64,000 bases of DNA, from contig CAZLVP010000003.1 of assembly GCA_964563055.1 (NCBI GenBank), positions 48,646 to 112,645 on the forward strand, read 5' to 3'. Under the pieces are notes generated by a model. The model was not told the origin of the DNA and did not search any database. It saw nothing but the letters and a program-made list of their open reading frames with translations. Below, piece by piece: positions 1-47,185 of this stretch; positions within the stretch are counted from its first letter, which is position 1, and every line of letters begins with the position of its first letter. The position numbers and the translations under genes are program-made. The stretch comes from an uncultured Thermoplasmatales archaeon. Its GTDB lineage: Archaea; Thermoplasmatota; Penumbrarchaeia; Penumbrarchaeales; Penumbrarchaeaceae.

Positions 1-335
1 ACAGGCTCAACGAGACCGGTCCAGGCACCTATGCATCTATAATTCCCGCAACAGCCCTGACCTGGGATATGGAATATGCCTATCACTTTTCCGATATGGC
101 CAACGGCCCTGACCTGGCCCCTGAGCTCGGAGGCAAGTTCAGGACGCCCAAGCAGACCTCAATAGGGGATGATGATGACGATGACGACGATGATGATGAC
201 GATGAGGATGGGATCGGCAGATACATTCTGCCCCTCTGCATCGTTATAGGCATCGTTCTACTACTGGTCATCATAGTTCTGGTCCTCTTCCTTGCTTTGA
301 GGAAGAAGGATAAGTCCGGTTCATGGGAAGAATGA
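1..335 (+). CDS. C-terminal end of a larger surface protein (5'-partial; frame is open from the window start). It has a poly-Asp tract (D12-E-D), then a C-terminal TM anchor and an RKKD...SWEE tail.
   Basis: The frame is open from nt 3 to the stop at 335. The 12-residue Asp run is encoded by GAT/GAC repeats at about 166-207. The hydrophobic helix ILPLCIVIGIVLLLVIIVLVLFLAL is followed by a basic tail. Confidence 0.5.
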   Translation, partial: RLNETGPGTYASIIPATALTWDMEYAYHFSDMANGPDLAPELGGKFRTPKQTSIGDDDDDDDDDDDDEDGIGRYILPLCIVIGIVLLLVIIVLVLFLALRKKDKSGSWEE

Positions 336-416: not shown

Positions 417-2765
417 TTGAGATCCACCCCTGCTGCCAGGGCAGCGTTCCACTTGATAGCAGCGTTCATTGTCACTGCCCCCCTCCTGTTCATCGCATAC
501 GGTACGTCATCTTTAGTACCTCTCAATGTCCGAACGGCCTTGGAGGCCCGGGAGCATCTGGACCCATATCTCAAAAAGGTCATGGAGGAGGGAGAGGGGG
601 AAATGAGAGTATTGGTCCGGTTTACCGACTGGCCTATTGTGGACGATATCAGGTCCGCTGAAGGTCTGGGAATGGACCACATCTGTTCTATGCAGGTCCT
701 TCCAGCAGCTCTTTTTAAGGGGACGCCAGAACAGATATCCGTGCTCTCAAGGGCTCCCAGGGTCGAATGGATAGAGTTCGACGGTGACCTCGAGCTGCTG
801 ATGGAACAGTCCCTCCTGACCATAAATGCCACGGTCACATGGAACTCGTGGCTCGAGGGAGCAAGGATGACATTCCCCAGAATAGACGGTGAAGGTGTGA
901 CCGTTGCGGTCGTCGATACCGGCATCGATGCTGGTCACCCGGACCTGGACTACGGCGAGAAGACCATAATCAACATCAAGTCCGACATACCCGGTGGCCC
1001 ATGGTACGAGCTCGAGAACTCCGATACGAGCTACGGACACGGGACCCATTGCGCAGGGACCATAGCTGGCAACGGGGACGCCTCGGCGGGAGCCAGGGCC
1101 GGCGTCGCCCCGGCGGCTAAGCTGATCGGACTTTGTGTGGGCGATGTCGGTATCACCCTGACAAATACGCTCCAGGGCCTCGAATGGGTCTATATGAACT
1201 CAAAACCCCCCAACCCATACAATATCAAGGTGGTCTCGAACTCGTGGGGCGGTGGGGCGGCTGAATATGACCCGGAGGATGCGACGTCCATCATATGTCA
1301 GAAGCTCACCTACGAGAACAACGTGCTTGTTGTCTTCGCAATGGGCAATGCCGGAAGCGGGTATCATACCGGAGAGACACTTACTGCCTCTCCCACTGGT
1401 CTAATACCTTCCAACATCGGTGTCGCAGCGACGGAAAGGGACGGTTCGGGAGTGGCATATTTCTCGTCACGTGGCGAGAAGGGGAAGAACCAGACCTATC
1501 CTGATATATCCGCTCCTGGGGTGAGGATCTGGTCAGCCCATGCCAGGGCCACACAGATATCTGCCATCTCCAAACTGAGAGGAAATCCCAACCCATACTA
1601 CCTGGCAATATCTGGAACATCGATGGCAACCCCACACATATCCGGACTTGCCGCCCTCATGTTCCAGGCTGCACCATCCCTGAGGATATCCGGGAGGTTC
1701 GAGGACTACAGCGGGGACGACCCAGAAGGTTGGTACGGGAACACCTTCAACAGGATACACGAGGTAGAGTGGATAATGGAGCAGACCGCGTTCTACATCC
1801 CACCCGACGGCGTTCCGCTGAGCGACGAGAGCACCGATAATGGGGTCCCGGAGCCCGAGGACATGGGTCCCACCGAGGTCGGTTGGGACGGGAGGAAGAT
1901 GGACTGGGCCCAGGGTTATGGCCTTGTGGATGCCGAAAAGTGCGTTGGGGTTGCCCTCACACTGCAGCACCTACGCACAGCCTACCCCCCGGCCAACCAG
2001 TGGAGCGTCAAGGATGCGATAGAGGTCTATTACCAGAACGAGGTGTTCGGACCTGCGTTCCATAATCTATCCACCGACACCCTTCAGACAACATGGACCG
2101 GTGAGTTCGCCAGATATGCCCAGGACGATGAGGGACCTCTTTTGGTCCAGAACCAATCAAGGCGGGTTTGGGTCCCTGGGGGAGCGACCGAGATGACCAT
2201 AGTCCTCTCCTACGACCCCGTGAACATTGTCGATAGGTCGGTCGGAGAGCTCACCTTCGTGGTGGATATGAACGATGACGGGACCTTCGATTACGAAGAA
2301 CCGTTCCTTGGGTCAAGGACCTCAGGTACTAAGGAGGCGGTCCTTCCCGTGGACGGGTCCAACACCGGTGGTTTTTGGGTGATAGGGGTCTATGGTCGCG
2401 GGTTCAGGATCATAAGGCCCATCATCGACAGGGAGTTCATGGAGCTGAGGATAGAGTATTCCCTTGGTGTCGCCCTCAGGATGGACATGCAAGAAGGAGG
2501 CATCATTTCGGTCACACCCCCTTTACCGACCTCCATGGTATCCATCTGGGAGGAGGGGACCCCCTCGGGAGGATACATGGGGGGTACAATATCCCTCTCC
2601 GGAACGGCGTTCCATATGAACAGGATGCATCCTATAGAGGAAACACCTCCACCTGGAAAGGAACGGTCCATGTTATGGTTGTTATTGCTGATAGTCGCTT
2701 TGGCCGCGGGAGTACTAGTAGCGGTCCTATATATCCGAAATAGAAAGAAGCCTTCAAAGGGCTGA
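417..2765 (+). CDS. Subtilisin-like serine protease (S8 family). It has an N-terminal signal/anchor and propeptide and a C-terminal TM anchor.
   Basis: The catalytic triad motifs VAVVDTGID (Asp), HGTHCAGTIAG (His) and GTSMATPHISG (Ser) are present. The C-terminal helix is LWLLLLIVALAAGVLVAVLYI followed by RNRKK. The start is TTG at 417; an ATG at 582 is the alternative. Confidence 0.85.
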   Translation: MRSTPAARAAFHLIAAFIVTAPLLFIAYGTSSLVPLNVRTALEAREHLDPYLKKVMEEGEGEMRVLVRFTDWPIVDDIRSAEGLGMDHICSMQVLPAALFKGTPEQISVLSRAPRVEWIEFDGDLELLMEQSLLTINATVTWNSWLEGARMTFPRIDGEGVTVAVVDTGIDAGHPDLDYGEKTIINIKSDIPGGPWYELENSDTSYGHGTHCAGTIAGNGDASAGARAGVAPAAKLIGLCVGDVGITLTNTLQGLEWVYMNSKPPNPYNIKVVSNSWGGGAAEYDPEDATSIICQKLTYENNVLVVFAMGNAGSGYHTGETLTASPTGLIPSNIGVAATERDGSGVAYFSSRGEKGKNQTYPDISAPGVRIWSAHARATQISAISKLRGNPNPYYLAISGTSMATPHISGLAALMFQAAPSLRISGRFEDYSGDDPEGWYGNTFNRIHEVEWIMEQTAFYIPPDGVPLSDESTDNGVPEPEDMGPTEVGWDGRKMDWAQGYGLVDAEKCVGVALTLQHLRTAYPPANQWSVKDAIEVYYQNEVFGPAFHNLSTDTLQTTWTGEFARYAQDDEGPLLVQNQSRRVWVPGGATEMTIVLSYDPVNIVDRSVGELTFVVDMNDDGTFDYEEPFLGSRTSGTKEAVLPVDGSNTGGFWVIGVYGRGFRIIRPIIDREFMELRIEYSLGVALRMDMQEGGIISVTPPLPTSMVSIWEEGTPSGGYMGGTISLSGTAFHMNRMHPIEETPPPGKERSMLWLLLLIVALAAGVLVAVLYIRNRKKPSKG

Positions 2766-5573: not shown

Positions 5574-8500
5574 ATGAACAGAAAGGTGTCACTTGTAGCG
5601 CTGTTGGTCGTGATCCTGATGGGAGCATCGTTCCTGCCGTTCCTGACCGGAATAGGGGCAGAGACACAGGGAGAGGGAGACCCCAAACCCCTGGCAGATG
5701 ATTACTACGGAGATTATTACGTATACTCCGGGGATGAGGACCACATAGAGGACCAGGACTGGAACATGTACGGCAGCATCTACGTCTATGGGACGCTGTA
5801 CATTAACCGCACAACGCTCCATTTCGGTGGATATGATGAGGGTTATGAGAACGGGGACCTGGGCATATATGTCTATTCTAGCGGTGCACTCTACGTGGAC
5901 GAGAGCAACTTCACCGCCAAGGACCAGACGACTGTGGTCGATAAGCCCGGGATAATCGCCTGGAACCGCTGGTGGGGGACCTGCTGGCATTTCCAGATAT
6001 TCGGAAAGGCCAATCTCACCAACTCCGACTTCAGCTATATGTGGGGGGACGGGGGCAACTCATTGGGGAACTTCGACGGAGGCATCCAGTGCTATTCTGA
6101 TGACATTTACATCTACAACTGCTACATCTACAACAACATGAACGCAGGTGTTTCAACGATCAGCGATCCATCCGGCTCGAATACAGCGGGCGGTTTCGAT
6201 TTCACTATGGACAATTGCGTCGTATCGAACACCTCCGGTTGGGGGATCGCAGCTGGCGGGTCCGGAGCACAGCCGAAGGTAACCAACACGACCATCATTG
6301 GCAGCGGCTACAGAGGTGCTCAGTACTTCTACGGTGCCAGTGGTGTCATTGACCAATGCAAGTTCCTGAACACCAAGCGCGAGTTCGGTTTCACCTACGA
6401 CCCGATAGTCGGCGGGACAATGACCATAACCAATACCACATTCAGCGGTAACAGGGATGGTTATTCTGCAAGGAGGACGGGGACGGTCAATCTCATAGAC
6501 TGCCATTTGGACAACAACCGAAGATGGGGCCTTGAGCTCGCCCATGACGCCTCCAGTATGCAGATCGTGTACATGAGGGGAGGTTCGGCGAACGGTAACG
6601 GCATGCACGGAGTCTCGGCGAACCTTACCCCCACGACCGCAACGCTCATGAACGTCGAGATCGCAAATAACAACATGAACGGCGTTTATATTTACGACCA
6701 GACCAATGTTGTGGACCTGATAGGTTGCTCCATCTTCGACAACAAGGGATATGGTGTTGAGTACAAGATGACCGCAGGGAGCATCAAGTCCTGCGATATA
6801 GCCCGGAACCTCAAAGGAAATGTCCTCTTGTTGAACGGGACGACGACAATTGTCCAGGACAACGAAATAAACGGCACGACACCGTTCGGTGTGAAGGTCC
6901 AGAACGCCCAACCATCGATCGTCGCCAACTGGATACGCAGGAACGACATAGGTTTGGAGATCATGTCGGATGGAGCACCTTCGAGCATTTCCGGGAACAC
7001 CTACGACAACAACAAGGTGGGGGTCCATGTCAAAGCGGATGCCATCGACCTGAGAATGGAGACATTCATAAGGAACGCACAGTCGGGCATATTCCTGGAC
7101 GATGTATCCGGGTTCATGATCAACGGTGGCTCGTTCACGAACGATAACATTGGGATCTCGATATCCGGTGGTGAGGTTGCGGATGTTACGGATGTGGTCA
7201 TGAGCGGTGCTTCCACTGCAGCGATATCCTTGAACAACAACGCTAACCTCACCATCAAGGACTGCCAGATGAGCGGGAACACCAGGGACTTCAGGCTCGA
7301 TATCGAATCACAGTGCAGGGCCTATTCGGTCGGATCACCGACCACCAAGGTCCAGGTCCTTGACTCAAGGTCCGAGCTCTGGCACTTCTGGAACGTAGCC
7401 ATCAACGCACACGACAACCAGACGCTATTCCCCATCTCAAACGCGAACCTGATCGTCTATGGGGCCAATGGTGAGCTGCTAATGAGCAAGAAGACAGGCT
7501 TCGACGGAGGCGCTTACGGTGATGTCCTTGAATATTATATCCGCGGGTCCCAGACCACCGTCTACAACCCGGTCAATATTACCGTTTCAAAGCCCGGTTA
7601 CATACCTTACTGGGGGGGTCCTGGGATCCTTGACCAGGATGTCTTCTTGGAGGTCAACCTCTCAGTCAACAAAGCCCCGGCCTTCTCCGAGCCCTGGGAA
7701 TACTCGCCGGACGAGACGCACTATAACAGGCCAACACTAAAATGGAACGCATCCACCGACTGGAACCAGGACATCATCAATTACATGGTGAACGTCTATC
7801 AGGATGAGCTCTATTCATCTAACCGTGTAGTGATAGACGCTGTAACGAGGGCCCCGCAGTTCACTTTTACCAAGAACCTCAGGTACAACAAGGAGTATTT
7901 TGTAGAGGTCAAGACCTATGACCCCTGGGGACTTAATGATACCCGGGTCTTCAGCTTCAGGACCATCAATACAAAGCCAACCACCCCGATCCTGGCCTTC
8001 GAGATGTCCCCTGTCTCGACCAGGGACAATATAGTGGTGCTTGTGAAGGTCAATGCCACGGACGTGGATGTTGACCCGATCGATGATATTAGCTACCTAG
8101 TAGAATGGGAGGTCTTCCGCAGCGGTTCTTGGGTCCTTCTGAGCTCGGGGATAGATGCCTTCATGCTCCATTCGAACAAGACCAATGAGGGGGACCGCAT
8201 AAGGGTCCGTGTGAAGGCCTTCGACGGGATAGAGTACGGTCAGGAGGTAAGTATGGAGGTACTTGTCCTGAACTTCGCGCCCAAGCTCCTCAAGGGAAGC
8301 GTTGACCTGACCATAAACGAGGACGAGATCGCCTTGAACCTGGTCTCGTTGGACGAGTTCTTCTCCGACCAGGACATGGACGACCTTACCTACAGCGTGT
8401 TCTTCCAGAGGCACGTATTGGCCGAGATAGAGCCCGTATCCAACAACCTAACCTTAACGCCCCTCCCCGATTGGGTCGGGACGGATTACATATTGGTCGA

Positions 8501-9722
8501 GGCGATGGACGGGAAGCACTCGAGCGAGGGTCTGGCCAAGCTCAGGATAAATATCACGGTGAAGGGGACCAACGATGCCCCTATCATTACCCTCCTCAAC
8601 GACAAACCGGTTCGTCCAGGGATACCGGTAACGGTCCAGTTCCAGCAGGGGTCATGGGCCGTCATAGCCCTATCCGCTTTCGATGCGGATGAGATATATG
8701 GTGATGAGTTCACCTTCTCCACCGACTTCAGGGATGTTGTAGGGAACGATATCGTGAAGGCCGAGGACCTCCAGTTCCAGACCTCGACCGGCGCATTCAA
8801 GGTCTTCCTTACGAACCCATTGGTAGGCGAACATATCTTCAATATCACCGTTACCGATAATAATGAAGCGAGCACAAGTGCGCTCGTCCACCTGATAGTC
8901 GAGAACATCAACGAAGCCCCGTCCAAGCCGACCTTCAAGCTTCCTGAGGGGGATACCGCGGAGACCGACGAGGACACTCCCCTCTCGTTCACTATCGAAG
9001 AAGCGGACGATCCTGACCTTCACATACCCAACTCCAAGGAGAGGATCTATTACGATTGGTCCTTCGGCGAGCTCGATACGAACCAGCAGGAGATATGGAT
9101 CAAGGACCAGGGAACGATCGTTGAGCATCAGTTCCTCAATTCCGGGCCCTATACTATCAAGGTAAGGGCTAGGGATTCGTTAGGCCTGACCGCTGTGGCC
9201 GAGAAAAAGATGACGATAACGGTGATTACAGAAGATATAAGAATTTCAGAAACAGAAACCGATAAACCATTCCTTCAGGAGTACGGGATGATCCTCATCC
9301 TCGTCCTGGTGGCCCTACTTGTCATCGCCCTTCTCGTGTTCATCTTCACTAGGAAGGAGCCACTCGCAGAGGTCGCCGATAAACAGGAGAAGGAGCATGA
9401 AGAGCTCGTCGCCAAGCAGCAGCAGGATGCCCTTGCGGCCCAGGAGAAGCTCCAGGTCCTTCTTGGAGGGGTCGCTATGGCCGGTGCCACAGGTCCCGCC
9501 CTGCCTTCCGCTCCGGACGGCTCTGGGCTCCAGGCCCTACCGGCCGCGACAATGCCTACTGAAGGGGCTGCTGCCCCCGCTATGGATGCTGTTCCCTTCC
9601 AGGCCCCACCGGCATCAGAACCACAACCGATGGCAGCACCGGAACCGGTCGTCGGCCAGGTCCCCGAGGCCCAACCACCAGTAGGGCCGGACCAGACCTA
9701 CCTGCCACCACCGACCCAGTGA
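5574..9722 (+). CDS. Giant surface protein with a signal peptide, right-handed parallel beta-helix (PbH1/NosD-like) repeats, cadherin/Ig-like domains, a C-terminal TM and a Pro/Ala/Gln-rich cytoplasmic tail.
   Basis: The N-terminus is MNRKVSLVALLVVILMGASFLPFLTG. Repeats such as NNMNGVYIYDQTNVVDLIGCSIFDNKGYGV are present. The domain boundaries TNDAPI and NINEAP look cadherin-like. The TM is MILILVLVALLVIALLVFIF. I set the start at the ATG at 5574; the track start at 5508 is GTG. Confidence 0.7.
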   Translation: MNRKVSLVALLVVILMGASFLPFLTGIGAETQGEGDPKPLADDYYGDYYVYSGDEDHIEDQDWNMYGSIYVYGTLYINRTTLHFGGYDEGYENGDLGIYVYSSGALYVDESNFTAKDQTTVVDKPGIIAWNRWWGTCWHFQIFGKANLTNSDFSYMWGDGGNSLGNFDGGIQCYSDDIYIYNCYIYNNMNAGVSTISDPSGSNTAGGFDFTMDNCVVSNTSGWGIAAGGSGAQPKVTNTTIIGSGYRGAQYFYGASGVIDQCKFLNTKREFGFTYDPIVGGTMTITNTTFSGNRDGYSARRTGTVNLIDCHLDNNRRWGLELAHDASSMQIVYMRGGSANGNGMHGVSANLTPTTATLMNVEIANNNMNGVYIYDQTNVVDLIGCSIFDNKGYGVEYKMTAGSIKSCDIARNLKGNVLLLNGTTTIVQDNEINGTTPFGVKVQNAQPSIVANWIRRNDIGLEIMSDGAPSSISGNTYDNNKVGVHVKADAIDLRMETFIRNAQSGIFLDDVSGFMINGGSFTNDNIGISISGGEVADVTDVVMSGASTAAISLNNNANLTIKDCQMSGNTRDFRLDIESQCRAYSVGSPTTKVQVLDSRSELWHFWNVAINAHDNQTLFPISNANLIVYGANGELLMSKKTGFDGGAYGDVLEYYIRGSQTTVYNPVNITVSKPGYIPYWGGPGILDQDVFLEVNLSVNKAPAFSEPWEYSPDETHYNRPTLKWNASTDWNQDIINYMVNVYQDELYSSNRVVIDAVTRAPQFTFTKNLRYNKEYFVEVKTYDPWGLNDTRVFSFRTINTKPTTPILAFEMSPVSTRDNIVVLVKVNATDVDVDPIDDISYLVEWEVFRSGSWVLLSSGIDAFMLHSNKTNEGDRIRVRVKAFDGIEYGQEVSMEVLVLNFAPKLLKGSVDLTINEDEIALNLVSLDEFFSDQDMDDLTYSVFFQRHVLAEIEPVSNNLTLTPLPDWVGTDYILVEAMDGKHSSEGLAKLRINITVKGTNDAPIITLLNDKPVRPGIPVTVQFQQGSWAVIALSAFDADEIYGDEFTFSTDFRDVVGNDIVKAEDLQFQTSTGAFKVFLTNPLVGEHIFNITVTDNNEASTSALVHLIVENINEAPSKPTFKLPEGDTAETDEDTPLSFTIEEADDPDLHIPNSKERIYYDWSFGELDTNQQEIWIKDQGTIVEHQFLNSGPYTIKVRARDSLGLTAVAEKKMTITVITEDIRISETETDKPFLQEYGMILILVLVALLVIALLVFIFTRKEPLAEVADKQEKEHEELVAKQQQDALAAQEKLQVLLGGVAMAGATGPALPSAPDGSGLQALPAATMPTEGAAAPAMDAVPFQAPPASEPQPMAAPEPVVGQVPEAQPPVGPDQTYLPPPTQ

Positions 9723-12608: not shown

Positions 12609-12699
12609 CGGATGTGGATAGCACTACCCCTATTTATCGCCAGACCCCCATACTCCTATCAATAGGATTATGTGGGGCTTTCGCCCATCCCTTGGGACG

Positions 12700-13614
12700 A
12701 TGAGGGTCCTGCATGTCAACAATCAGGCATCCGTAGGTCATCTCCTGTCCAGGGCCCAGAGGAAGCTCGGGCACAGGTCCGACCTGCTTTCGGTCCCCAA
12801 CCCCAAGCAGAGGCCTCCGGACATAGGGGCTGAGAGCGTACCTTGGTTGTTCGCCGAGCTCCTGGCCAGGGCGCCATACTATGATATCGTCCATGTTCAT
12901 GGCGGTATAGGCATCTCGGGCCTGGGACTTTGGCCTTATAGGTTGGCAGGCAAGCGTTTCTTCTGCCACTACCACGGGTCGGAGCTCAGGGAGGGCAAAC
13001 AGACGCTCTTCCATTCCCTGGCGGAAAGGCTATTCATATCCACGCCTGACCTGAAGCGTTTCTCAGGCAATGTCAGAGGGAGGCAGCTGGTCCATATCCC
13101 CAATCCCGTTCTCGTTGAGGGAGTGACCCCGGTAGATTGGAAAGGGCGTTCGGGCGAGCTAGAAGGGGATGGGCCTCTGAGGATAGCCCATCTGCCCTCG
13201 GTCCGCAGGGTCAAGGGAACAGAGAACGTTATTAAGGGTGTGAAAGAAGCCTGCTCTGAGGGAGCCTTGCTCGAGCTTGATGTGATAGAGGACGTCCAAC
13301 TGGACGAGGCGATGGAGAGGCTCAACAAAGCCCACATCTGCATCGATTGGATGTCTGATGACTATGATATCCACGGAGTGGTATCCGTAGAGGCCATGAT
13401 ACGGGCCCTCCCGGTGATATGTAACATAGAGAGGTCCCTCTACCCTACGGACATACCGATAGTACCCTCCAAACCATCCTCTCTGGCGAAGGTCCTCATC
13501 GAGCTATGGGACAAGAGGGCTGACCTACCTAAGATAGGGGAGCTGTCCAGGCGCTATGCCTTGGACCACCATGACCCTGATAAGGTAGCCCTGCTGATGG
13601 AGAAGTATATCTAG
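12700..13614 (+). CDS. Glycosyltransferase (GT4-like).
   Basis: It has a Rossmann-like N-domain starting MRVLHVNNQ..., VHVHGG, and a C-terminal retaining-GT fold pattern. I set the start at the ATG at 12700. Confidence 0.55.
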   Translation: MRVLHVNNQASVGHLLSRAQRKLGHRSDLLSVPNPKQRPPDIGAESVPWLFAELLARAPYYDIVHVHGGIGISGLGLWPYRLAGKRFFCHYHGSELREGKQTLFHSLAERLFISTPDLKRFSGNVRGRQLVHIPNPVLVEGVTPVDWKGRSGELEGDGPLRIAHLPSVRRVKGTENVIKGVKEACSEGALLELDVIEDVQLDEAMERLNKAHICIDWMSDDYDIHGVVSVEAMIRALPVICNIERSLYPTDIPIVPSKPSSLAKVLIELWDKRADLPKIGELSRRYALDHHDPDKVALLMEKYI

Positions 13615-13656
13615 GCCCATTTCGATTTGGGTCCAGGACAAGGTCAGGTGGCACCC

Positions 13657-14352
13657 ATGATATCGAAGAATGCCAGGATCAATAAGAACGTTGAGCTCGG
13701 GAAGGGAGGGACTGTGGAAGACAATGTCATCCTGGGCGCCCCTGTCAGAGGGGATGACCCCTACCCAGTCACAATTATTGGCGAAGGGGCCATGATCAGG
13801 TCCCATACTGTCATCTATTCCGGCAACAGGATAGGTCGGAACTTCCAAACGGGCAACAAGGCGAACATCAGGGAGACGAACGAGATAGGGGACGATGTTT
13901 CGATAGGGACCCTATCGGTAGTGGAGCATCATGTTACAATTGGCAACGGTGTGAGGGTCCATTCACAGGTGTTCGTTCCGGAGTTCAGCGTCCTTGAGGA
14001 CGGATGCTGGCTTGGGCCAGGCGTAGTCCTGACCAATGCAAGGTTCCCGAACACCCCCTACACCAAAGAGGAGCTAAGGGGACCCAGGATCTGCCAAGGG
14101 GCCAGGATAGGCGCGAACTCGACGGTCCTTCCGGGGATCAAGGTCGGGCCGTTCTCATTGGTAGGGGCAGGATCGGTGGTGACAAGGGACGTTTTAGAAA
14201 GGGAGGTCGTGGCAGGGAACCCCGCAAGGAGGCTTGGATGGTCCTGCACCTGCGGTGTGCCCCTCGATGGTGATGGGAAGGCACTTCTCTGCAGGAAGTG
14301 CGGAGCTAGGTTCGATGAGGGAGAGCCCCCCAAAAGGCTAGAGATGGGGTGA
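13657..14352 (+). CDS. Left-handed beta-helix (hexapeptide-repeat) sugar N-acetyltransferase with a C-terminal zinc ribbon.
   Basis: Hexapeptide repeats are present (IGEGAMIRSHTVIYSGNRIGRN..., IGANSTVLPGIKVGPFSLVGAGSVV). The C-terminus reads CTCGVPLDGDGKALLCRKCGARF. Confidence 0.75.
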   Translation: MISKNARINKNVELGKGGTVEDNVILGAPVRGDDPYPVTIIGEGAMIRSHTVIYSGNRIGRNFQTGNKANIRETNEIGDDVSIGTLSVVEHHVTIGNGVRVHSQVFVPEFSVLEDGCWLGPGVVLTNARFPNTPYTKEELRGPRICQGARIGANSTVLPGIKVGPFSLVGAGSVVTRDVLEREVVAGNPARRLGWSCTCGVPLDGDGKALLCRKCGARFDEGEPPKRLEMG

Positions 14353-14358
14353 GCTCCG

Positions 14359-14937
14359 ATGTGTCCTTTCGGTCCGGTCGAAAGGGCATTGAAGGAGAGC
14401 TCCCTGGTCATTTTCGACCTGGATGGGACCCTATTTGACCTTGAGGTGGATTGGAAGGGGCTATTGAACGAGATGGCCATGATAGCTTACGAGAGCAGGC
14501 ATGTTGGCCCCTTCAGGGACCTGGTCGAGGCATACGAATGGTGCAGGGGCAGGGAGAGGGCCAAAGAAAGGATGTTGCTGGTCCAGAGGGAGTACGAGGG
14601 AAAGGACCTCAAGAAGGCCAATCGGCTCTTCCCCGGCACCCTCGCAGCAAGATGGAGGCTTTCCAGGGACCGGATGTGCTCCATCTTCAGCCTGAACACC
14701 TCCTATACGGTCGAAGGTCTTGTCTCGTCCTGGGGCTTCTATCCCGTTGTGACCGTTGACAGGACAGAAAGGTCGAAACCGGACCCAGAGGGTCTGTTAA
14801 GGGCCATGAAGGTAAGGGGTGTAGGTCCGGACAGGACTGTTTTTGTCGGCAATTCCGAGAGGGACAGGGAGGCCGCCCTTCGGGCAGGGGTCATGTTCAT
14901 AGATGTGAAGGACATAAGGGAGGAATGGTTCACATGA
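14359..14937 (+). CDS. HAD-superfamily hydrolase (phosphatase).
   Basis: The DxD motif IFDLDGTLFD is present, with later FVGNSERD. Confidence 0.65.
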   Translation: MCPFGPVERALKESSLVIFDLDGTLFDLEVDWKGLLNEMAMIAYESRHVGPFRDLVEAYEWCRGRERAKERMLLVQREYEGKDLKKANRLFPGTLAARWRLSRDRMCSIFSLNTSYTVEGLVSSWGFYPVVTVDRTERSKPDPEGLLRAMKVRGVGPDRTVFVGNSERDREAALRAGVMFIDVKDIREEWFT

Positions 14938-16040
14938 CGGTCCAATTGAACAGGATGTTCGTTGACGATGAGATCAGGCAGGCGGCCCTGGAGACGATAG
15001 AGAGCGGTCATTATGTCAAGGGGCCCAGGGCATCGGAGTTCGAGAGCGAGTTCGCTCGGACCATAGGCGATGTCCGTGCGGTGAGCTGCTCGTCCGGGTC
15101 CACGGCACTGATGCTCGCCTTCAAGGCGCTGGAGATAGGAAGGGGGGACGAGGTCATCGTTCCGTCCCACACCTTCGTGGCGACCATAAACGGTTTCTGG
15201 CACTACGGTGCGAGGCCCAAGTTCGTGGACATAGACCCCGAGACCTACACCATGGACCCGGAGAAGGTCAGGAAGGCCGTAACGAAGAGGACGGCTGCCA
15301 TCGTTCCTGTCCATATCTACGGACATCCTGCAGAGATGGCCCCCATCCTCGAGCTCGGGGAGGAACTGGACATCCCGGTGATAGGGGACGCTGCCCAGTC
15401 CCACGGGGCGAAGTACAGGGGGGTGGACATCGGGAAGCTGGGGGACATGACATGCTATTCCTTCTTCCCCTCAAAGATCATAACCGTCGCCGGGGAGGGG
15501 GGGATGATAACCTGCGGTGACGAGGAGCTTTGCGAGCTCCTCCAGGCCCTCAAGGACCACGGCAGGTACCCGTCGGACCCAGAAAGCAAGTACAGATCGA
15601 CCATAGCCGGTTTCAATATGAGGCTCCCGGAGCTTCTGGCCGCAATAGGGAAGGTCCAATTGAAGCACATGGAGGGATGGATAGAGAGGAGGAGGGAGCT
15701 TGCGGCTATCTACAATAATGAGCTGGAAGGCGTCGGGGACCTTGTACTGCCCGTGGAGAAGGAGTGGGCCCGGCATGTCTATTATCTCTATGTCGTGAGG
15801 ACGGCAGCGTCCGGTAGGAAGGCATTGATGGAGCATCTTAAAAAGGACGGCATCTCGACGGGCATCCATTATCCCATTCCCGTCCACAGGATGCCATATA
15901 TCAAGAAGGCCCCGAGATTGCCAGTTACGGAGAGGATAGTTGACGAGATAGTGTCCCTTCCCATGCATCCTCTGATGACGGAAGAGGAGCATGGAGCGGT
16001 GATATCCTCCGTCAAAGCGTTCTTCAAGCAGAAGAGGTGA
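14925..16040 (+). CDS. DegT/DnrJ/EryC1/StrS-family PLP-dependent sugar aminotransferase.
   Basis: The pattern VKGPRASEFESEFA...AVSCSSGSTALMLA...HIYGHPAEM...DAAQSHGAKY is typical of the family. Confidence 0.85.
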   Translation: MVHMTVQLNRMFVDDEIRQAALETIESGHYVKGPRASEFESEFARTIGDVRAVSCSSGSTALMLAFKALEIGRGDEVIVPSHTFVATINGFWHYGARPKFVDIDPETYTMDPEKVRKAVTKRTAAIVPVHIYGHPAEMAPILELGEELDIPVIGDAAQSHGAKYRGVDIGKLGDMTCYSFFPSKIITVAGEGGMITCGDEELCELLQALKDHGRYPSDPESKYRSTIAGFNMRLPELLAAIGKVQLKHMEGWIERRRELAAIYNNELEGVGDLVLPVEKEWARHVYYLYVVRTAASGRKALMEHLKKDGISTGIHYPIPVHRMPYIKKAPRLPVTERIVDEIVSLPMHPLMTEEEHGAVISSVKAFFKQKR

Positions 16041-16044
16041 ACGA

Positions 16045-17232
16045 TTGAGGATAGCGCATGTGGTATCCTACTTCCAGCCGGAGTTCGGCTATGAGGAGTA
16101 CTACAGCGCAAGGGAGCAGGCGGCTATGGGACATGAGGTCCATGTGATAACATCCGACAGGATATTCCCTTTCAAGGACGCATCCCGGATGCTCGCCGAT
16201 ATAGGGTCCTCGTACAAGGACAGGAAGAGGCCCCTGGGAGCTCAGGAGATGGAGGGGTTCACCGTCCACAGGGGCAAGACCCGCTACGAGGTCCTCTTCG
16301 ACCTCATATCCTACGAGGGCGTCGTTCGGACCTTGAGGGATATCAAGCCTGATGTGGTCCACGCCCACGGGCTATGGCAATGGGGCACAAGGAAAGCGGC
16401 CTCGGTCAAGGAAGAGCTCGGGTTCGCCCTGGTAGTGGACGAGCATTCATATTCAACGACCTATGATCAGACAAAAACAATCAGGAACTGGCTCCTTGAC
16501 AAGGAGTACAGACTGCTCAGGGCCCCCCATGCCCGAAGGTCCTTGAAGAAGGCGGACGGGTTGGTCGCCATTTGCCAGGAGACAGTGGGGTTCCTCAAGG
16601 GCTTCTACGGGGTCAAGGACTGCGAGCTCATAGAGCTGGGGATAGACCACAGGAAGTTCAGAAGGGATGAGGGATCAAGGGAGAGGGTCCGGAAGGAACT
16701 GGGTGTAGGGGGGGGGCCTCTCCTGATAACAGCTGGCCGTGTCGAAAGGGAGAAGAAGCTCGAGCATTTCATAGAGGCTGTGAAGCTCACGGGGATGAAG
16801 GACATAAAGCTCCTGGTAGTGGGAAGGGGGGATAAGGCATATATCGAGAGATTGAAGGCCATATCCGATGGTCGCATCATCTTCATGGGGTTCAAGGACC
16901 AGGAGGCACTCTCTGCACTTTACAGCGCCTCCGATATAGGGCTTTGGGGAAAGGCTTCGATAACTATCAGAGAGGCGATGGGCTGCGCCCTACCGCTCCT
17001 GCTCTATGATGTTCCCAACATGAAGGACCTCATAAAATGGGACAACGGCATGTTCGTCAAGCCATCCTCTGAAGCTGTAAAGGATGCCATATCAAGGATG
17101 CTTTCTGACAGGGATGCCCTGAGGAAGATGGGAGGGAACAGCAGGAAGGGAGTGATGGAGGAGCTGTCGGTGGCCGTGGAGGCCACAAAGCTCCTGGACC
17201 TATACAGAACATGCTTAAAGGCAGCAAAATGA
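16045..17232 (+). CDS. GT4-family glycosyltransferase.
   Basis: The N-terminus is MRIAHVVSYFQPEFGYEEYY. The C-domain is EHFIEAVK...GFKDQEALSALYSASDIGLW. Confidence 0.8.
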   Translation: MRIAHVVSYFQPEFGYEEYYSAREQAAMGHEVHVITSDRIFPFKDASRMLADIGSSYKDRKRPLGAQEMEGFTVHRGKTRYEVLFDLISYEGVVRTLRDIKPDVVHAHGLWQWGTRKAASVKEELGFALVVDEHSYSTTYDQTKTIRNWLLDKEYRLLRAPHARRSLKKADGLVAICQETVGFLKGFYGVKDCELIELGIDHRKFRRDEGSRERVRKELGVGGGPLLITAGRVEREKKLEHFIEAVKLTGMKDIKLLVVGRGDKAYIERLKAISDGRIIFMGFKDQEALSALYSASDIGLWGKASITIREAMGCALPLLLYDVPNMKDLIKWDNGMFVKPSSEAVKDAISRMLSDRDALRKMGGNSRKGVMEELSVAVEATKLLDLYRTCLKAAK

Positions 17233-17325
17233 GGCGGAAAAAGGTCATTTCCAACTCTATGCTTTAATAGTTAAAAAAACGATTCCCGTCCCATCATATG
17301 GTTGAAAAAAGGCAGGTGTCCTGAG

Positions 17326-17625
17326 ATGATGTACTGTTCCAAGTGCGGTTCGGATATGAGGGGTTCGACCACTTACTGTCCAGCTTGCGGTTACTCGGTG
17401 AAGCAGATGAAGCTCGATGCGGCGAGCGCTCCTCCCAAGTTCAGACCAGTGGACCCGGCCAAGAGGTCATACAACATGATATCGTCCTCAGCGAACAGGG
17501 ATGGGGACGAGATCAGACCTGGATACGGCTCAGATGGTTTGAGGACCAGAAGGCTCGAGCCAGAGGAGAAGCCCAAGGGGATAATCTTCGGAAGGCCTAA
17601 GAAGGACGAGGACGAGGTCAGTTGA
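17326..17625 (+). CDS. Small protein with an N-terminal zinc ribbon.
   Basis: The N-terminus is MMYCSKCGSDMRGSTTYCPACGYS. The track start at 17302 is TTG. The N-terminus is paralogous to that of the protein at 44858-45475. Confidence 0.5.
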   Translation: MMYCSKCGSDMRGSTTYCPACGYSVKQMKLDAASAPPKFRPVDPAKRSYNMISSSANRDGDEIRPGYGSDGLRTRRLEPEEKPKGIIFGRPKKDEDEVS

Positions 17626-17710
17626 ACCGGTGTTTCCGATCATTCTCCGGTCCCTTCCATGACCAGGTTGGTTTTAAGTAATCCTCCTGTGATGTCGTCT
17701 CGGTGCAGAA

Positions 17711-18814
17711 ATGGGCAAGGTCCGATTTTCGGTCGTTGGTTATGGCAACATAGGGTCGAGACATGTTCACTTCCTCGGGCAGTTACCGGGCGCTGAGCTG
17801 ATCTCCATCTGCGACATCAAGAAAGAGAGGGCAGAGGAAGGCGCGGCCAAAGCTGGATGTAAGGCCCTTACGGACTACCAAGAGGTCCTTGCTGACCCCG
17901 AAGTGGACGTCGTCGACATCTGTACCCCCTCCGGGCTACATGCTGCTATGTCGGTCAAGGCCATGAAGGCGGGCAAACATGCAATCTCCGAGAAGCCCAT
18001 GGCCCTCTCGCTCAAGGATGCCGATGAGGTCCTCAAGGTCCAAAAGAAGACCGATAAGAGATACTTTCTCGTCAAGCAGAACCGCTACAATCCCCCTGTC
18101 GCTGCCCTAAGGAAGGTGGTTGAGGACGGGAGCATCGGAAAGGTCCTTTTCATATCATCGAACGTCTTCTGGAACAGGCGGAGGGGGTACTACGAAGAGG
18201 AGCCTTGGAGGGGTACCCTTGCCCTTGATGGAGGCGCCCTCTTCACCCAGAGCTCACATTTCATAGACCTGCTCCTTTGGCTAGGTGGCAAACCTCTTTC
18301 CGTGGAGTCCTACATGGCGAACCTCTCCCATGAGTACACTGAGACAGAGGACACCGGGTCCGTCAGGATAGAGCTCGAAGGTGGTGGGCTTGCGGTCATG
18401 AACTATACTACCTCCACCTACCATTCGAACCTTGAAGGCTCCATAACGGTCCTGGGGACCAATGGAACCGTTAAGGTGGGAGGCAAATACCTCAACGAAC
18501 TGGTGGAATGGAACGTCGAAGGCGTACCCAGACCGGACCTCCCTCCTGGAGGTCCACCTAACACATACAAGGGTGGTTATCAGGGTTCCATGTCCAATCA
18601 CGACAAGGTCCTTCAGAACGTCATTGATGTCCTGAACGAGGGGAAGCAGGTCGCCGTATCATTGGAAGAGGGCCGCCTTACCGTTGAGGTGATGCAGGCT
18701 GCCCATATCTCGGCCCTTGAGGGAAAGAAGGTGGTCCTGCCCTTGAAAGGAAAGCATCTCGGGTTCGAACTATCGAACACACAGCCCTTCCCGTCAAGGG
18801 AACGCAACAGATGA
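17711..18814 (+). CDS. Gfo/Idh/MocA-family NAD(P)-dependent sugar dehydrogenase (WbpB-like).
   Basis: The Rossmann motif VVGYGNIGSRH is present, with EKPMALSLKDADEV and a C-terminal alpha/beta dimerisation domain. Confidence 0.8.
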   Translation: MGKVRFSVVGYGNIGSRHVHFLGQLPGAELISICDIKKERAEEGAAKAGCKALTDYQEVLADPEVDVVDICTPSGLHAAMSVKAMKAGKHAISEKPMALSLKDADEVLKVQKKTDKRYFLVKQNRYNPPVAALRKVVEDGSIGKVLFISSNVFWNRRRGYYEEEPWRGTLALDGGALFTQSSHFIDLLLWLGGKPLSVESYMANLSHEYTETEDTGSVRIELEGGGLAVMNYTTSTYHSNLEGSITVLGTNGTVKVGGKYLNELVEWNVEGVPRPDLPPGGPPNTYKGGYQGSMSNHDKVLQNVIDVLNEGKQVAVSLEEGRLTVEVMQAAHISALEGKKVVLPLKGKHLGFELSNTQPFPSRERNR

Positions 18815-22933: not shown

Positions 22934-23797
22934 TCACTTTATGTAGCCATATGTGTAAGCGCCCTTGATATCTATGCCCTTCTCATCGAAGGTGTACTCC
23001 ACCCACTGGTTCCCACGCAGGTCAGGCAGGCCTTTGACCAAGAGAAGGTGCTTGTCGTTGTCCTCTTTCAGGCTGAAGGACCCGTCCATGGAGTGCTCTA
23101 TGGCGTTTATCTCCTCGGGTTTGTGGATACCCCCTGCCAGATCGAACATGACGATACCGTTGTAGGCCTTGGTCTTGGTAGAGACCGAATTGATGAAATC
23201 TATGGTATTGTTGAGCCCGTGCGCCCGGAGTATGGACGACAGGGAATCGAAAAGGATCCTGTGATAGAAGTATTTCTTAGCATAACCTGCTTGGAGCCTC
23301 TCTATGGCAGCAATGACTGTGCTCAGGTCATTGACACCGTTGAGATAGACGGCATAGGGGTTCTTCCCCATCAGCCCAACTGTCTTCGAGTGGCAGTCGA
23401 CATATGTCAGGAGACCTGCCCTCTCCCTGTCCTCGAGCTTGAGGTCCAATTCCACTGCCCTTTTTCTGAAATTGGATGTCGTGTTATTGGTAAGGACGAC
23501 TATGGCAGGGGAACCGTACTTTATCCCTTCGGATATGAACTGGGCCAGAAGGATATCCTTGCCAATGAACGCGGGTCCCTGCACGACCGAGCACGAACGG
23601 AAGGGGAGACCCCCTCCAAGGAACTCATCGAGCCTTTTCCCCCCGAGCTGGGCCTTTCGGGGCTTTTCACCGCTCGGTCTCTTCACGATCCTTTGCTGTT
23701 GAGAGGCACCCTGGCCGTTATCCCCGTAACCTGCCCCCGTTAGACTACCCTGTCCTTTGGTAGGGTGGCCACCTGCTGGTCGAACCCCCTGTTCCAT
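22934..23797 (-). CDS. KaiC-like RecA-superfamily protein with a degenerate Walker A.
   Basis: LDEFLGGGLPFRSCSVVQGPAFIGKDILLAQF aligns to the KaiC pattern GIPGLD..GGL...GPPGTGKT, but its P-loop reads GPAFIGKD. It has a Gly/Gln-rich N-terminal extension. Confidence 0.55.
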   Translation of the reverse strand: MEQGVRPAGGHPTKGQGSLTGAGYGDNGQGASQQQRIVKRPSGEKPRKAQLGGKRLDEFLGGGLPFRSCSVVQGPAFIGKDILLAQFISEGIKYGSPAIVVLTNNTTSNFRKRAVELDLKLEDRERAGLLTYVDCHSKTVGLMGKNPYAVYLNGVNDLSTVIAAIERLQAGYAKKYFYHRILFDSLSSILRAHGLNNTIDFINSVSTKTKAYNGIVMFDLAGGIHKPEEINAIEHSMDGSFSLKEDNDKHLLLVKGLPDLRGNQWVEYTFDEKGIDIKGAYTYGYIK

Positions 23798-25097: not shown

Positions 25098-26279
25098 TTG
25101 GTAAGGACGAATGGAACATGTAAGGGACCTGGGCGGACCCTGGTCATCACGCTATCTCTCCTCCTACTTGCCCTGCTTCAGAACCCATCAGGTTCGTTCG
25201 GTCATCCGCCGTCCGATATGGTCCTTGAGTATGATTTCGCCTCCCAGGTCCTCTCCGTGACCATAACCCATAATTCACCGACGACCTCGAACCACTACGT
25301 GGAGACAGTTGAGCTCTTCAAGAACGGGATAGCACAGGAGACCTTCACCTACCAGACCCAGCCTGACAGGTCCATGTTCACCTACGAGTACCCTGTCACC
25401 GGCCAGGACGGTGACCTTATAGAGGCCATGGCAACATGCAATATATACGGCTCATTGACAAGGAACACGACGGTTGTCGGGCCCAAGGAGAGTATGAGGA
25501 TGGAACTGGCCCCCAGACCGACGTCCATTGGTTCCGGTATGGATGTGGATTTCACCGTCAACCTATACTCTGCGGCAGACGATATACCGCTCGATGGGGC
25601 AAGGGTGGTAGCCGTCCCTGAACTAGGATCGGTGACCGATGTTGAACCATTGGCATTGGGCGGGTATACATTCACATATACCGCCCCGAGCATCATCGAC
25701 GATGTGGCCGAGGAGCTCAATATCTCGGCCTCCAAGAACGGCTATCATACCATCTATCAAGAGCTGCTCTTCGATATTGTATCTGAGACAACGCCTAGGA
25801 TCCAGGTCTCGATACTGCCCATACTTTACAAGCTGAACGAGGGCGAGAAGACGACCTTCAGCGTCAGGGTAAGGTCCGGGACCCAGGACCTTGATGTGGA
25901 GGACATTACCGTCGAGCGTTCCGGAGGTGAGGTGGAGAAGAAGAAGGTATCCAAGGGTCAGTTCACGCTCGAATACAAACCGGATGAGGTGGCATCTGAC
26001 ACCAACGCTTTCATCCAGGTGAGGGCTGAGATGGAAGGCTACCTTCCCGGGGAAAAGAGACTTGATTTCGTGATATCTGACATACCCGACACCCCTGGTA
26101 ATGGTGATGGTGGGTCCGGACCATCTTCATTGACGAACACCCTCCTGCTCATAGGGATTATACTGGCCCTTGGAGCGGCGCTGTCCTTCGTTATCTATAT
26201 GGTCTGGAAAAAGAGGTCGGTCAGGAAGGGGTCGGAGGACGAAAGGGTGACCGCCAGGGAGCTGGGACCTGAGAGATGA
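25098..26279 (+). CDS. Secreted protein with a C-terminal TM anchor (Ig-like folds), function unknown.
   Basis: It has a signal/hydrophobic N-terminus. The C-terminal helix is LLLIGIILALGAALSFVIYMVW followed by KKR. Confidence 0.5.
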   Translation: MVRTNGTCKGPGRTLVITLSLLLLALLQNPSGSFGHPPSDMVLEYDFASQVLSVTITHNSPTTSNHYVETVELFKNGIAQETFTYQTQPDRSMFTYEYPVTGQDGDLIEAMATCNIYGSLTRNTTVVGPKESMRMELAPRPTSIGSGMDVDFTVNLYSAADDIPLDGARVVAVPELGSVTDVEPLALGGYTFTYTAPSIIDDVAEELNISASKNGYHTIYQELLFDIVSETTPRIQVSILPILYKLNEGEKTTFSVRVRSGTQDLDVEDITVERSGGEVEKKKVSKGQFTLEYKPDEVASDTNAFIQVRAEMEGYLPGEKRLDFVISDIPDTPGNGDGGSGPSSLTNTLLLIGIILALGAALSFVIYMVWKKRSVRKGSEDERVTARELGPER

Positions 26280-47076: not shown

Positions 47077-47185
47077 AGTGCAGCTCTCCGTTTCCGGTCC
47101 CCAATAAGAGAATGAAGGCTATAAAACCTTTTTATGGGCCTGCAGGTCGGACCGTCAATTGACCGGACAGGATCGTGGACCGATC

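What the first reader, a model, noticed from the sequence alone, without database searches (positions are those of the whole stretch)
290..335. Shared C-terminal anchor architecture with an identical terminal [W/F]-E-E motif on three unrelated surface proteins
Six large secreted proteins in this window end in a single TM helix followed by a short basic cytoplasmic tail. They are the partial ORF at 1-335 and the genes at 417-2765, 5574-9722, 19559-22543, 25098-26279 and 26294-29041. Three of them terminate in the same tripeptide: ...RKKDKSGSWEE (1-335), ...RKKDPVMDWEE (26294-29041) and ...RRNRDVLVEGTGPFEE (19559-22543). Their ectodomains are otherwise unrelated, so a conserved extreme C-terminus points to a dedicated sorting, processing or cytoplasmic docking signal. 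It would be analogous in principle to PGF-CTERM/archaeosortase or PDZ-ligand tails, but the sequence is different.
Basis: seen in the sequence. Interest (0 to 1): 0.55.

Follow-up and report, generated by a model that had tools for sequence, protein, structure and literature searches.

The report
Glu-Glu tail on archaeal surface proteins
In one uncultured class of archaea, several unrelated large surface glycoproteins all end, on the inner side of the membrane, in the same two glutamates; these are kept almost without exception across distant relatives, so they look like an undescribed recognition tag whose reader is still unknown.

Summary
Three membrane-anchored proteins in the window end in WEE, WEE and FEE, each after a transmembrane helix and a basic cluster.

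The invariant part is the final Glu-Glu-COOH:
- Orthologues of 19559-22543: position -1 is E in 38/38 distinct tails, position -2 is E in 36/38.
- Orthologues of 26294-29041: EE in 19/19.
- A beta-helix family absent from the window: EE in 8/8.
- The orthologue of the partial ORF 1-335 ends GWEE.

These relatives are only 37-45% identical. Tail length varies from 8 to 19 residues, and all four GAR-GAR codon pairs occur, so selection acts on the protein.

In about 330 kb from this clade, 42 of 71 ORFs with a C-terminal helix end in EE, against 1 of 206 other ORFs. In about 900 kb of control DNA, 4 of 784 do. The clade matches GTDB class EX4484-6 (Ca. Penumbrarchaeia).

Neighbouring anchored proteins (S8 protease, a 390-aa protein, a beta-helix protein with a 124-aa tail) never carry EE. 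No curated sorting-domain model or paper I could search describes it.

The function is inferred only: most likely a docking or sorting peptide read close to the membrane. No partner was identified.

The parts
3..335 (+). 3' end of a large surface-protein gene cut by the window edge. The full-length orthologue in L081 is 1261 aa, with a signal peptide, CarboxypepD_reg/Big repeats and a poly-Asp run.
222..299 (+). C-terminal transmembrane helix YILPLCIVIGIVLLLVIIVLVLFLAL
300..332 (+). Cytoplasmic tail RKKDKSGSWEE. The basic cluster is at 300-308, Trp at 324-326 and the invariant Glu-Glu at 327-332. The TGA stop follows at 333-335.
   Evidence: the orthologue tail is RRKDTSKGWEE
19559..22543 (+). 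Family F0: signal peptide, GH-like N-domain, tandem-95/cadherin-like repeats. It has 18 N-x-S/T sequons.
22415..22540 (+). F0 TM helix (22415-22492) and tail RRNRDVLVEGTGPFEE (22493-22540). The terminal EE is at 22535-22540.
   Evidence: 38 distinct orthologue tails give E 38/38 at -1 and E 36/38 at -2
26294..29041 (-). Family F5: signal peptide and CARDB/Ig-like ectodomain, with 26 sequons. It is translationally coupled to the upstream EamA transporter gene.
26297..26401 (-). F5 TM helix (26330-26401) and tail RKKDPVMDWEE (26297-26329). The terminal EE is at 26297-26302 and the stop at 26294-26296.
   Evidence: 19/19 orthologue tails end in EE, with Trp at -3, -4 or -5
417..2765 (+). Comparator without the tag: an S8 subtilase with a C-terminal TM helix and the tail NRKKPSKG. 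Four relatives were examined: three have complete C-termini, none ending in EE; L081 is cut before the C-terminus.
25098..26279 (+). Comparator without the tag: the conserved 390-aa anchored protein (family F3). Its tail is KRSVRKGSEDERVTARELGPER, and 0/13 orthologues end in EE.
5574..9722 (+). Comparator: a beta-helix/PKD surface protein (family F12). The TM helix is at 9285-9347 and the 124-aa cytoplasmic tail ends TYLPPPTQ, not EE.
22934..23797 (-). KaiC-like ATPase (family F2). It is present next to the F0 gene in 19 of the 22 GTDB clade loci (L001-L022), and was also seen in the extra loci L085-L091. It is context only, and a weak candidate partner.
12670..18814 (+). Context: a sugar-modification and glycosyltransferase cluster (GT4, hexapeptide acetyltransferase, HAD, DegT, GT1, GFO/IDH/MocA). 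It is syntenic with the surface-protein genes.

Best explanation
The window comes from a Thermoplasmatota archaeon of, or close to, GTDB class EX4484-6 (Ca. Penumbrarchaeia). It carries part of a conserved island of surface-glycoprotein and glycosylation genes.

A subset of the type I proteins in this lineage ends in a lineage-specific cytoplasmic tag. These proteins have an N-terminal signal peptide, a large sequon-rich ectodomain and a single C-terminal TM helix. The tag is: TM helix, 2-4 Arg/Lys, 2-15 variable residues that often include an aromatic or hydrophobic one, then Glu-Glu-COOH.

Shown here: the tag is under strong protein-level purifying selection, it sits on at least five protein lineages with four different ectodomain architectures, and it is absent from non-anchored proteins and from other lineages.

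Inferred: the tail faces the cytoplasm (positive-inside rule). The two glutamates and the free carboxylate act as a short linear recognition peptide. In the shortest tails EE lies only 4-5 residues beyond the basic cluster (RKKTPEEE, KRKTPPEE). It could be a sorting or processing enzyme in a many-to-one pairing, as with archaeosortase or rhombosortase, or an adaptor that tethers or positions these glycoproteins.

For: 1. Conservation:
   - F0: E at -1 in 38/38 tails and at -2 in 36/38.
   - F5: EE in 19/19.
   - F6 (beta-helix): EE in 8/8.
   - The F6 paralogue L083:4015-7413 ends VPEE.
   - The orthologue of the 1-335 protein ends GWEE.
   - Asp never occupies -1 or -2, although it is common at -6 to -8.
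2. The rest of the tail varies in sequence and in length (8-19 residues).
3. All four GAR GAR codon combinations occur (17/16/6/4). The two WEE tails in the window differ at synonymous sites, and their TM segments are unrelated in DNA.
4. Enrichment: in the clade, 42/71 ORFs with a C-terminal helix end in EE against 1/206 others (Fisher p = 2.5e-29; orthologues are not independent). In controls, 1/57 and 3/727.
5. Selectivity: the S8 protease, F3 and F12, anchored proteins in the same locus, never carry EE. The tag is therefore not a general requirement of anchored proteins.
6. The protein really ends at EE. In six loci the convergent neighbouring gene's stop codon lies 2-6 nt away.
7. No NCBIfam C-terminal sorting-domain model matches.
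Against: - No binding partner, cleavage product or modification is shown. The function rests on analogy alone.
- All examples come from one syntenic region plus its flanks, so the genome-wide extent is unknown.
- The many orthologues are phylogenetically dependent. The independent units are about five gene lineages, two of them paralogous.
- Two F0 orthologues end -ME, so the second-last Glu is not absolute.
- The candidate readers seen in the window are not adjacent to the tagged genes, and their co-distribution could not be tested. They are a CPBP/Rce1-like protease, a TPR protein and KaiC-like ATPases.
Confidence: 0.5

Rival explanations
1. Acceptor site for a C-terminal modification. The terminal Glu would be ligated, extended or trimmed by a cytoplasmic enzyme. 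Precedents are LysW (ends EDWGE, used by LysX/ArgX), ribosomal protein S6 (ends EE, extended by RimK) and detyrosinated alpha-tubulin (ends GEE, used by TTL).
For: - Glu is strictly preferred over Asp at the last two positions.
- F5 tails resemble the LysW end; for example, P0005 ends EDWGEE.
- An ATP-grasp gene is present in the window.
- The precedents themselves are from my own knowledge, not from a test here.
Against: - The only ATP-grasp protein in the window is a D-Ala-D-Ala-ligase-like enzyme fused to GNAT, not of the RimK/LysX type. It lies 13 kb from the nearest tagged gene.
- Trp is absent from the F0 and F6 tails.
- No ligase is conserved in the syntenic locus.
Confidence: 0.1
2. 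Anti-degron. An acidic C-terminus would protect short, unstructured cytoplasmic tails from membrane-bound or tail-specific proteases.
For: - The tails are short and probably disordered.
- Polar or acidic C-termini stabilise proteins against tail-specific proteolysis in bacteria (established knowledge).
- The tag is confined to membrane proteins.
Against: - A generic charge effect would tolerate D, DE or ED, yet only EE is seen.
- Other anchored proteins in the same cells have basic or neutral ends: PSKG, GPER and the like.
Confidence: 0.12
3. A purely biophysical or topogenic role. The acidic end would pair with the juxtamembrane basic cluster or with lipids to set tail conformation, oligomerisation or stop-transfer behaviour.
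For: The basic cluster and the acidic end always occur together, and the tails are very short.
Against: - Spacing between the basic cluster and EE varies from 2 to 15 residues.
- The requirement for the exact terminal position, and for Glu rather than Asp, is hard to explain by electrostatics alone.
- The S8 protease and the other untagged proteins insert without it.
Confidence: 0.1
4. A nucleic-acid-level or translation-termination feature. GAR-GAR-TGA would be selected as a terminator or hairpin element, or to slow termination at a weak stop codon.
For: - TGA follows EE in 37/41 genes, against 119/179 other genes.
- Convergent F6/F5 gene ends form 9-bp palindromes.
Against: - The synonymous positions of both Glu codons vary freely.
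- The base after the stop codon varies.
- F0 and the 1-335 gene are not in convergent EE/EE pairs.
- The palindrome follows automatically when two EE-TGA gene ends meet.
Confidence: 0.05
5. No function. The tag would be a shared anchor cassette spread by duplication or gene conversion and retained by inertia.
For: The two WEE tails in the window are alike (RKKD-x4-WEE), and F6 has a paralogue that also carries EE.
Against: - There is no DNA similarity beyond the motif codons between the two tails or their TM segments.
- Neutral residues would not stay invariant across orthologues at 37-45% identity while every neighbouring tail position changes.
Confidence: 0.03

Closest known systems
Tripartite C-terminal sorting signals of prokaryotic surface proteins (PGF-CTERM/archaeosortase A, PEP-CTERM/exosortase, GlyGly-CTERM/rhombosortase, MYXO-CTERM/myxosortase, LPXTG/sortase)
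   Same: - The signal is at the C-terminus of large, often glycosylated surface proteins with unrelated ectodomains.
- A TM helix is followed by a basic cluster.
- The signal is lineage-restricted.
- Several substrates occur per genome.
   Different: - In those systems the signature lies on the outer side, before the TM helix, and the protein ends at the basic cluster.
- Here nothing conserved precedes the helix, and the signature is the cytoplasmic extreme end.
- No curated model matches.
- No sortase-type gene is linked, and cleavage is not shown.
NWETF-COOH pentapeptide of high-abundance bacterial chemoreceptors (tether for CheR/CheB)
   Same: A prokaryotic membrane protein carries a flexible cytoplasmic tail that ends in a short Trp/Glu-containing peptide. 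The peptide works only at the free C-terminus, as a docking site.
   Different: - That motif ends in Phe, not Glu.
- It sits on polytopic receptors with large cytoplasmic domains.
- Here Trp is dispensable in three of the five lineages.
EEVD-COOH of Hsp70/Hsp90 bound by TPR two-carboxylate clamps
   Same: An acidic extreme C-terminus is read together with the terminal carboxylate.
   Different: - The sequence ends in EE, not EEVD.
- The carriers are membrane proteins.
- No clamp-type TPR partner has been established. The window's TPR protein sits in a pilus-like operon.
Cytoplasmic-tail sorting signals of eukaryotic type I membrane proteins (KKXX-COOH, di-acidic, YxxPhi, [DE]xxxL[LI])
   Same: - Type I topology with a short cytoplasmic tail.
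- The terminal position matters.
- One F0 subclade carries DFDYxSLLEE, which matches YxxPhi and the acidic di-leucine pattern.
   Different: - No coat or adaptor homologues are known or were seen here.
- The pattern matches are short and may be coincidental.
- EE-COOH itself is not a described eukaryotic signal, to my knowledge.
C-terminal Glu acceptors (LysW EDWGE, S6-RimK, tubulin-TTL)
   Same: A terminal Glu preceded by acidic and aromatic residues; Glu is required rather than Asp.
   Different: Those carriers are soluble proteins with a dedicated ATP-grasp ligase encoded nearby or well known. No such ligase is linked here.

Membership tests
PGF-CTERM / archaeosortase A substrates | Pro-Gly-Phe (or a close variant) signature immediately before the C-terminal TM helix | tested here: not met
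   - The residues before the helices are DGIGR|YILPL, NGPALLF and DGRSYLW.
- No PGF-CTERM model hit at E<=1.
PGF-CTERM / archaeosortase A substrates | TM helix followed by a basic cluster | tested here: met
   RKK, RRNR and RKK directly follow the helices. This feature is generic to stop-transfer anchors.
PGF-CTERM / archaeosortase A substrates | Protein ends within a few residues of the basic cluster | tested here: not met
   The tails run a further 4-15 residues to a conserved EE.
PGF-CTERM / archaeosortase A substrates | Archaeosortase gene in the same genome | not testable with these tools
   Only 64 kb of the genome is available, and no such gene lies in the window.
Any curated C-terminal sorting domain (PEF-, VPXXXP-, GlyGly-, MYXO-, IPTL-, Loki-CTERM, LPXTG and others) | Match to the NCBIfam domain model above its cut-off | tested here: not met
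   The only C-terminal-domain hit is GG_III-CTERM at 14.6 bits against a cut-off of 22 (E = 0.023), a match to the TM region.
PDZ-domain ligands | Hydrophobic residue at the C-terminal position | tested here: not met
   The last residue is Glu in 65/65 tails of families F0, F5 and F6.
EEVD / TPR carboxylate-clamp ligands | C-terminal EEVD, or at least an acidic residue, a hydrophobic residue, then Asp-COOH | tested here: not met
   The tails end in Glu-Glu-COOH with a variable residue at -3; none ends in Val-Asp.
EEVD / TPR carboxylate-clamp ligands | Clamp-type TPR partner | not tested
   A TPR plus Zn-ribbon protein exists at 45525-46805. Its clamp residues and binding were not examined.
Chemoreceptor NWETF tether | xWExF-COOH on a methyl-accepting chemotaxis protein | tested here: not met
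   - The terminal residue is Glu, not Phe.
- The carriers are type I surface proteins with no MCP domain.
LysW / RimK-type C-terminal Glu acceptors | Dedicated RimK/LysX-type ATP-grasp ligase encoded with the carrier | tested here: not met
   - No ATP-grasp gene lies in the syntenic cluster.
- The window's ATP-grasp protein is Ddl-like and fused to GNAT.
CaaX / Rce1 (CPBP) substrates | Cys at position -4 (CaaX box) | tested here: not met
   No Cys occurs in any tail. A CPBP-family protease is encoded at 51930-54590, but a link to the tag is untested.

The most novel reading that the evidence does not exclude
EE-COOH, together with the conserved cytoplasmic tails of neighbouring surface proteins, is the visible half of an undescribed archaeal system. 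In it, a membrane-level reader sorts, positions or processes a defined set of surface glycoproteins through their cytoplasmic ends. That would be a prokaryotic counterpart of tail-based cargo recognition in eukaryotes, or a new sortase-like enzyme class that reads from the inside.
Probability: 0.15. Interest if true: 0.85.

Novelty: new variant of a known kind. Interest (0 to 1): 0.58.

Why it matters
C-terminal signals such as LPXTG, PEP-CTERM and PGF-CTERM have each led to a new protein-sorting enzyme and to rules for predicting surface proteomes. All the known prokaryotic ones are read on the outer face or inside the membrane. A tag read at the cytoplasmic tip of the tail would be a different logic.

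It would also give a handle on envelope biology in Ca. Penumbrarchaeia, a class known only from metagenomes and one enrichment culture, where most envelope proteins are unannotated.

In practice, the pattern (signal peptide ... TM helix, [RK]2-4, x2-15, EE-COOH) is a cheap predictor of a co-regulated or co-handled set of surface glycoproteins.

Tried and rejected
- Homologue search with the 110-aa fragment 3-335 found nothing. The orthologue was reached instead through the adjacent S8 gene.
- An exact look-up of a window protein in the contig index failed, so the rest of the 166-kb source contig could not be read.
- A profile search of 1.84 billion representatives with the F0 alignment was swamped by giant tandem-95-repeat proteins. 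It added no distant relatives.
- NCBIfam and Pfam scans gave no C-terminal sorting-domain match.
- A DNA-level explanation was rejected, because the synonymous codons vary and the two WEE tails share no DNA similarity.
- The ATP-grasp lead was rejected as a RimK/LysX analogue: the enzyme is Ddl-like with a GNAT domain.
- A degenerate DNA pattern for KKD-x4-WEE-stop found nothing in viral contigs.
- Six literature searches (EX4484-6, archaeal tail and sorting terms, archaeosortase with Thermoplasmat*), together with reading PMC12220078 and PMC10477458, found no description of the motif.
It was kept only as a weak lead, because it sits in an operon with GAPDH and nothing ties it to the tails.

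Full report
**Observation.** The three C-termini are in the sequence exactly as reported.
- The partial ORF 3-335(+) ends YILPLCIVIGIVLLLVIIVLVLFLAL|RKKDKSGSWEE. The TM helix is at 222-299, the tail at 300-332 and the stop at 333-335.
- 19559-22543(+) ends ...GAYLFM|RRNRDVLVEGTGPFEE.
- 26294-29041 lies on the minus strand and ends ...PLVLLLV|RKKDPVMDWEE.

Among all 1229 six-frame ORFs of at least 30 aa in the window, five end in EE, and the three long ones are these proteins.

Two details of the finding need correcting.
- 5574-9722 does not have a short tail. Its TM helix (9285-9347) is followed by 124 cytoplasmic residues.
- The common element is not [W/F]EE, as shown below.

**What the proteins are.** All have an N-terminal signal-peptide-like segment and one C-terminal helix followed by Arg/Lys, which is type I topology by the positive-inside rule (inference).
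- 19559-22543 (family F0): GH-like N-domain plus tandem-95/cadherin-like repeats.
- 26294-29041 (family F5): CARDB/Ig-like.
- The 1-335 protein: CarboxypepD_reg/Big repeats in its full-length orthologue L081:1287-5072.

F0, F5 and the beta-helix protein carry 1.4-2.8 N-x-S/T sequons per 100 residues. Most other window proteins carry up to about 0.8, typically about 0.3-0.5. They also sit beside a cluster of sugar-modifying genes: GT4, hexapeptide acetyltransferase, HAD, DegT, GT1 and GFO/IDH/MocA. They are best read as surface glycoproteins.

**Source organism.** The closest relatives are all Thermoplasmatota MAGs. Three of the related genomes are explicitly EX4484-6:
- L012 = M17C-73-04 (PMC10477458);
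- L013;
- L020.

PMC12220078 names this class Ca. Penumbrarchaeia. Assigning the window itself to that class is an inference.

**Conservation.**
- F5 has nine database orthologues at 37-74% identity plus locus copies. All 19 distinct C-termini end in EE, with Trp at -3 (10 tails), -4 (7) or -5 (2).
- F0 has 38 distinct C-termini at 36-77% identity. Position -1 is E in 38/38 and -2 is E in 36/38 (M in the other two). Position -3 is L, Y, P, E, F, I, M, N and others.
- A third family, F6, is absent from the window but lies between F3 and F5 in most relatives. It combines a beta-helix/NosD domain, Ig domains and CarboxypepD_reg. It ends in EE in 8/8.
- An F6 paralogue at 26% identity, L083:4015-7413, ends VPEE.
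- The orthologue of the 1-335 protein ends GWEE.

Tail length ranges from 8 to 19 residues. Asp is common at -6 to -8 but never at -1 or -2.

By contrast, the S8 protease, the 390-aa protein F3 (0/13) and the beta-helix protein F12 never end in EE.

**Level of selection.** The two Glu codons use all four GAR combinations: GAG GAA 17, GAG GAG 16, GAA GAA 6, GAA GAG 4. The two WEE tails in the window differ at synonymous sites, and their TM-coding DNA is unrelated. In six loci the convergent neighbour's stop codon is only 2-6 nt away, so read-through extension is excluded. Selection therefore acts on the protein end.

**Enrichment.** I called ORFs greedily on the window plus 25 clade loci (about 330 kb).
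- 42 of 71 ORFs with a hydrophobic helix in the last 60 or so residues end in EE.
- 1 of 206 other ORFs does (Fisher p = 2.5e-29).

In 59 loci from other archaea and bacteria (about 900 kb) the counts are 1/57 and 3/727.

Orthologues inflate these numbers. The independent units are five gene lineages with the tag and three without.

Outgroup Thermoplasmata loci, and a more distant genome carrying a 41%-identical S8 gene (L084), have anchored proteins without EE.

**Context.** Synteny is strongly conserved across the clade. The gene order is:
1. F12
2. BirA
3. a CBS-domain protein
4. an amidohydrolase
5. the sugar genes
6. a HAD-family gene
7. F0 (tagged)
8. an AhpD-like gene
9. the KaiC-like ATPase
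10. GAPDH
11. F3
12. F6 (tagged)
13. F5 (tagged)
14. EamA

No protease, TPR, PDZ or ligase gene lies inside this block. Elsewhere in the window are:
- a Ddl-like ATP-grasp/GNAT fusion;
- a TPR plus Zn-ribbon protein in a PilB/PilC-like operon;
- an 886-aa CPBP/Rce1-like intramembrane protease.

In L086 a presenilin-like gene directly precedes F0. These are leads, not evidence.

**Mechanism.** The pattern is typical of a short linear motif read at a free C-terminus:
- strict terminal position;
- Glu, never Asp;
- a variable spacer;
- family-specific hydrophobic or aromatic residues just upstream;
- presence on only a subset of anchored proteins.

I rate a docking or sorting/processing signal as the most likely explanation (0.5). 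The rivals are:
- a modification acceptor (0.10);
- an anti-degron (0.12);
- an electrostatic or topogenic role (0.10);
- a nucleic-acid or termination effect (0.05);
- inertia, with no function (0.03).

**Comparison with known systems.** The tag shares the TM helix plus basic cluster, and the many-unrelated-substrates logic, with PGF-CTERM-type signals. It fails their defining feature, a signature before the helix, and no curated model matches. It fails the PDZ, EEVD, NWETF and CaaX definitions at the terminal residues. Functionally it most resembles C-terminal tether peptides such as NWETF or EEVD.

No description of it was found in the searchable literature.

**Verdict.** This is a real, strongly conserved, lineage-specific C-terminal tag. 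It is a new variant of the general class of C-terminal recognition signals. Its function is not demonstrated.

Noticed in passing
L003:13607-13642, L005:10385-10417, L006:11647-11678, L008, L014, L020: The convergent F6(+) and F5(-) genes end 2-6 nt apart. Both end GAR-GAR-TGA, so the junction is a near-perfect 9-bp palindrome (for example gaggagtga-TC-tcactcctc). It could double as a bidirectional 3'-end hairpin.
   Followed up: partly
window and clade loci (all genes ending in EE): The stop codon after EE is TGA in 37 of 41 genes, against 119 of 179 other genes of at least 200 aa. The orthologues are not independent, so the bias is unexplained.
   Followed up: partly
window 9348-9719 (+): The beta-helix/PKD surface protein has a 124-residue cytoplasmic tail. 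It contains a coiled-coil-like stretch (EKEHEELVAKQQQDALAAQEKLQ), then a Pro/Ala/Gln/Glu-rich region, then a terminal [TS]YLPP motif conserved in orthologues. This is a second kind of conserved cytoplasmic tail in the same locus.
   Followed up: partly
window 168-209 (+): A run of 12 Asp (then E-D) sits just outside the TM helix of the 1-335 protein; the L081 orthologue has at least 14. Similar Asp runs precede the helix in many F3 orthologues.
   Followed up: no
F0 orthologue tails (P0014-P0018, P0020, P0023, P0035, P0037, L009): One subclade conserves DFDYxSL[LM]EE. This matches the eukaryotic YxxPhi pattern (17 of 38 tails) and the [DE]xxxL[LI] pattern (9 of 38). Another subclade conserves DELRYDxxxYEE.
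   Followed up: partly
window 51930-54590 (-): An 886-aa polytopic protein with a CPBP/Rce1-like intramembrane protease domain. Enzymes of this family cut C-terminal tails at the cytoplasmic membrane face, which makes it a speculative candidate reader of the EE tag.
   Followed up: no
L086:8444-9676 (also L012:8152-9657): A polytopic gene with a weak presenilin match lies directly upstream of the F0 orthologue in one sub-lineage. Presenilin homologues cleave type I membrane proteins.
   Followed up: no
window 45525-51220 (-): A type IV pilus-like or archaeal Tad-like operon: T2SSE ATPase (49166-51220), two T2SSF membrane proteins (47186-49182), a TPR protein with a C-terminal zinc ribbon (45525-46805) and a further zinc-ribbon protein (44858-45475).
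   Followed up: partly
window 42417-44078 (-): An unusual fusion of a D-Ala-D-Ala-ligase-like ATP-grasp domain with a GNAT acetyltransferase domain (553 aa), next to tRNA-Arg(CCT) at 42120-42197.
   Followed up: partly
window 29031-30068 / 26294-29041 (-): The end of the EamA-family transporter gene overlaps the start of the F5 gene by 11 nt. The adjacency is conserved in L002, L012, L085 and L086, which suggests co-translation of a transporter and a tagged glycoprotein.
   Followed up: partly
L086:15031-16947, L012:14898-16925, L019:9163-10170: In some genomes the F3-family protein is fused to, or duplicated beside, a version carrying DOMON and cytochrome b561 domains. This hints that the 390-aa anchored protein of the window (25098-26279) belongs to an extracellular redox module.
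   Followed up: no
window 22934-23797 (-) and 30148-30906 (+): Two KaiC-like (RecA-superfamily) ATPases flank the surface-protein block. The first is present next to F0 in 19 of the 22 GTDB clade loci (L001-L022) and was also seen in the extra loci L085-L091.
   Followed up: partly
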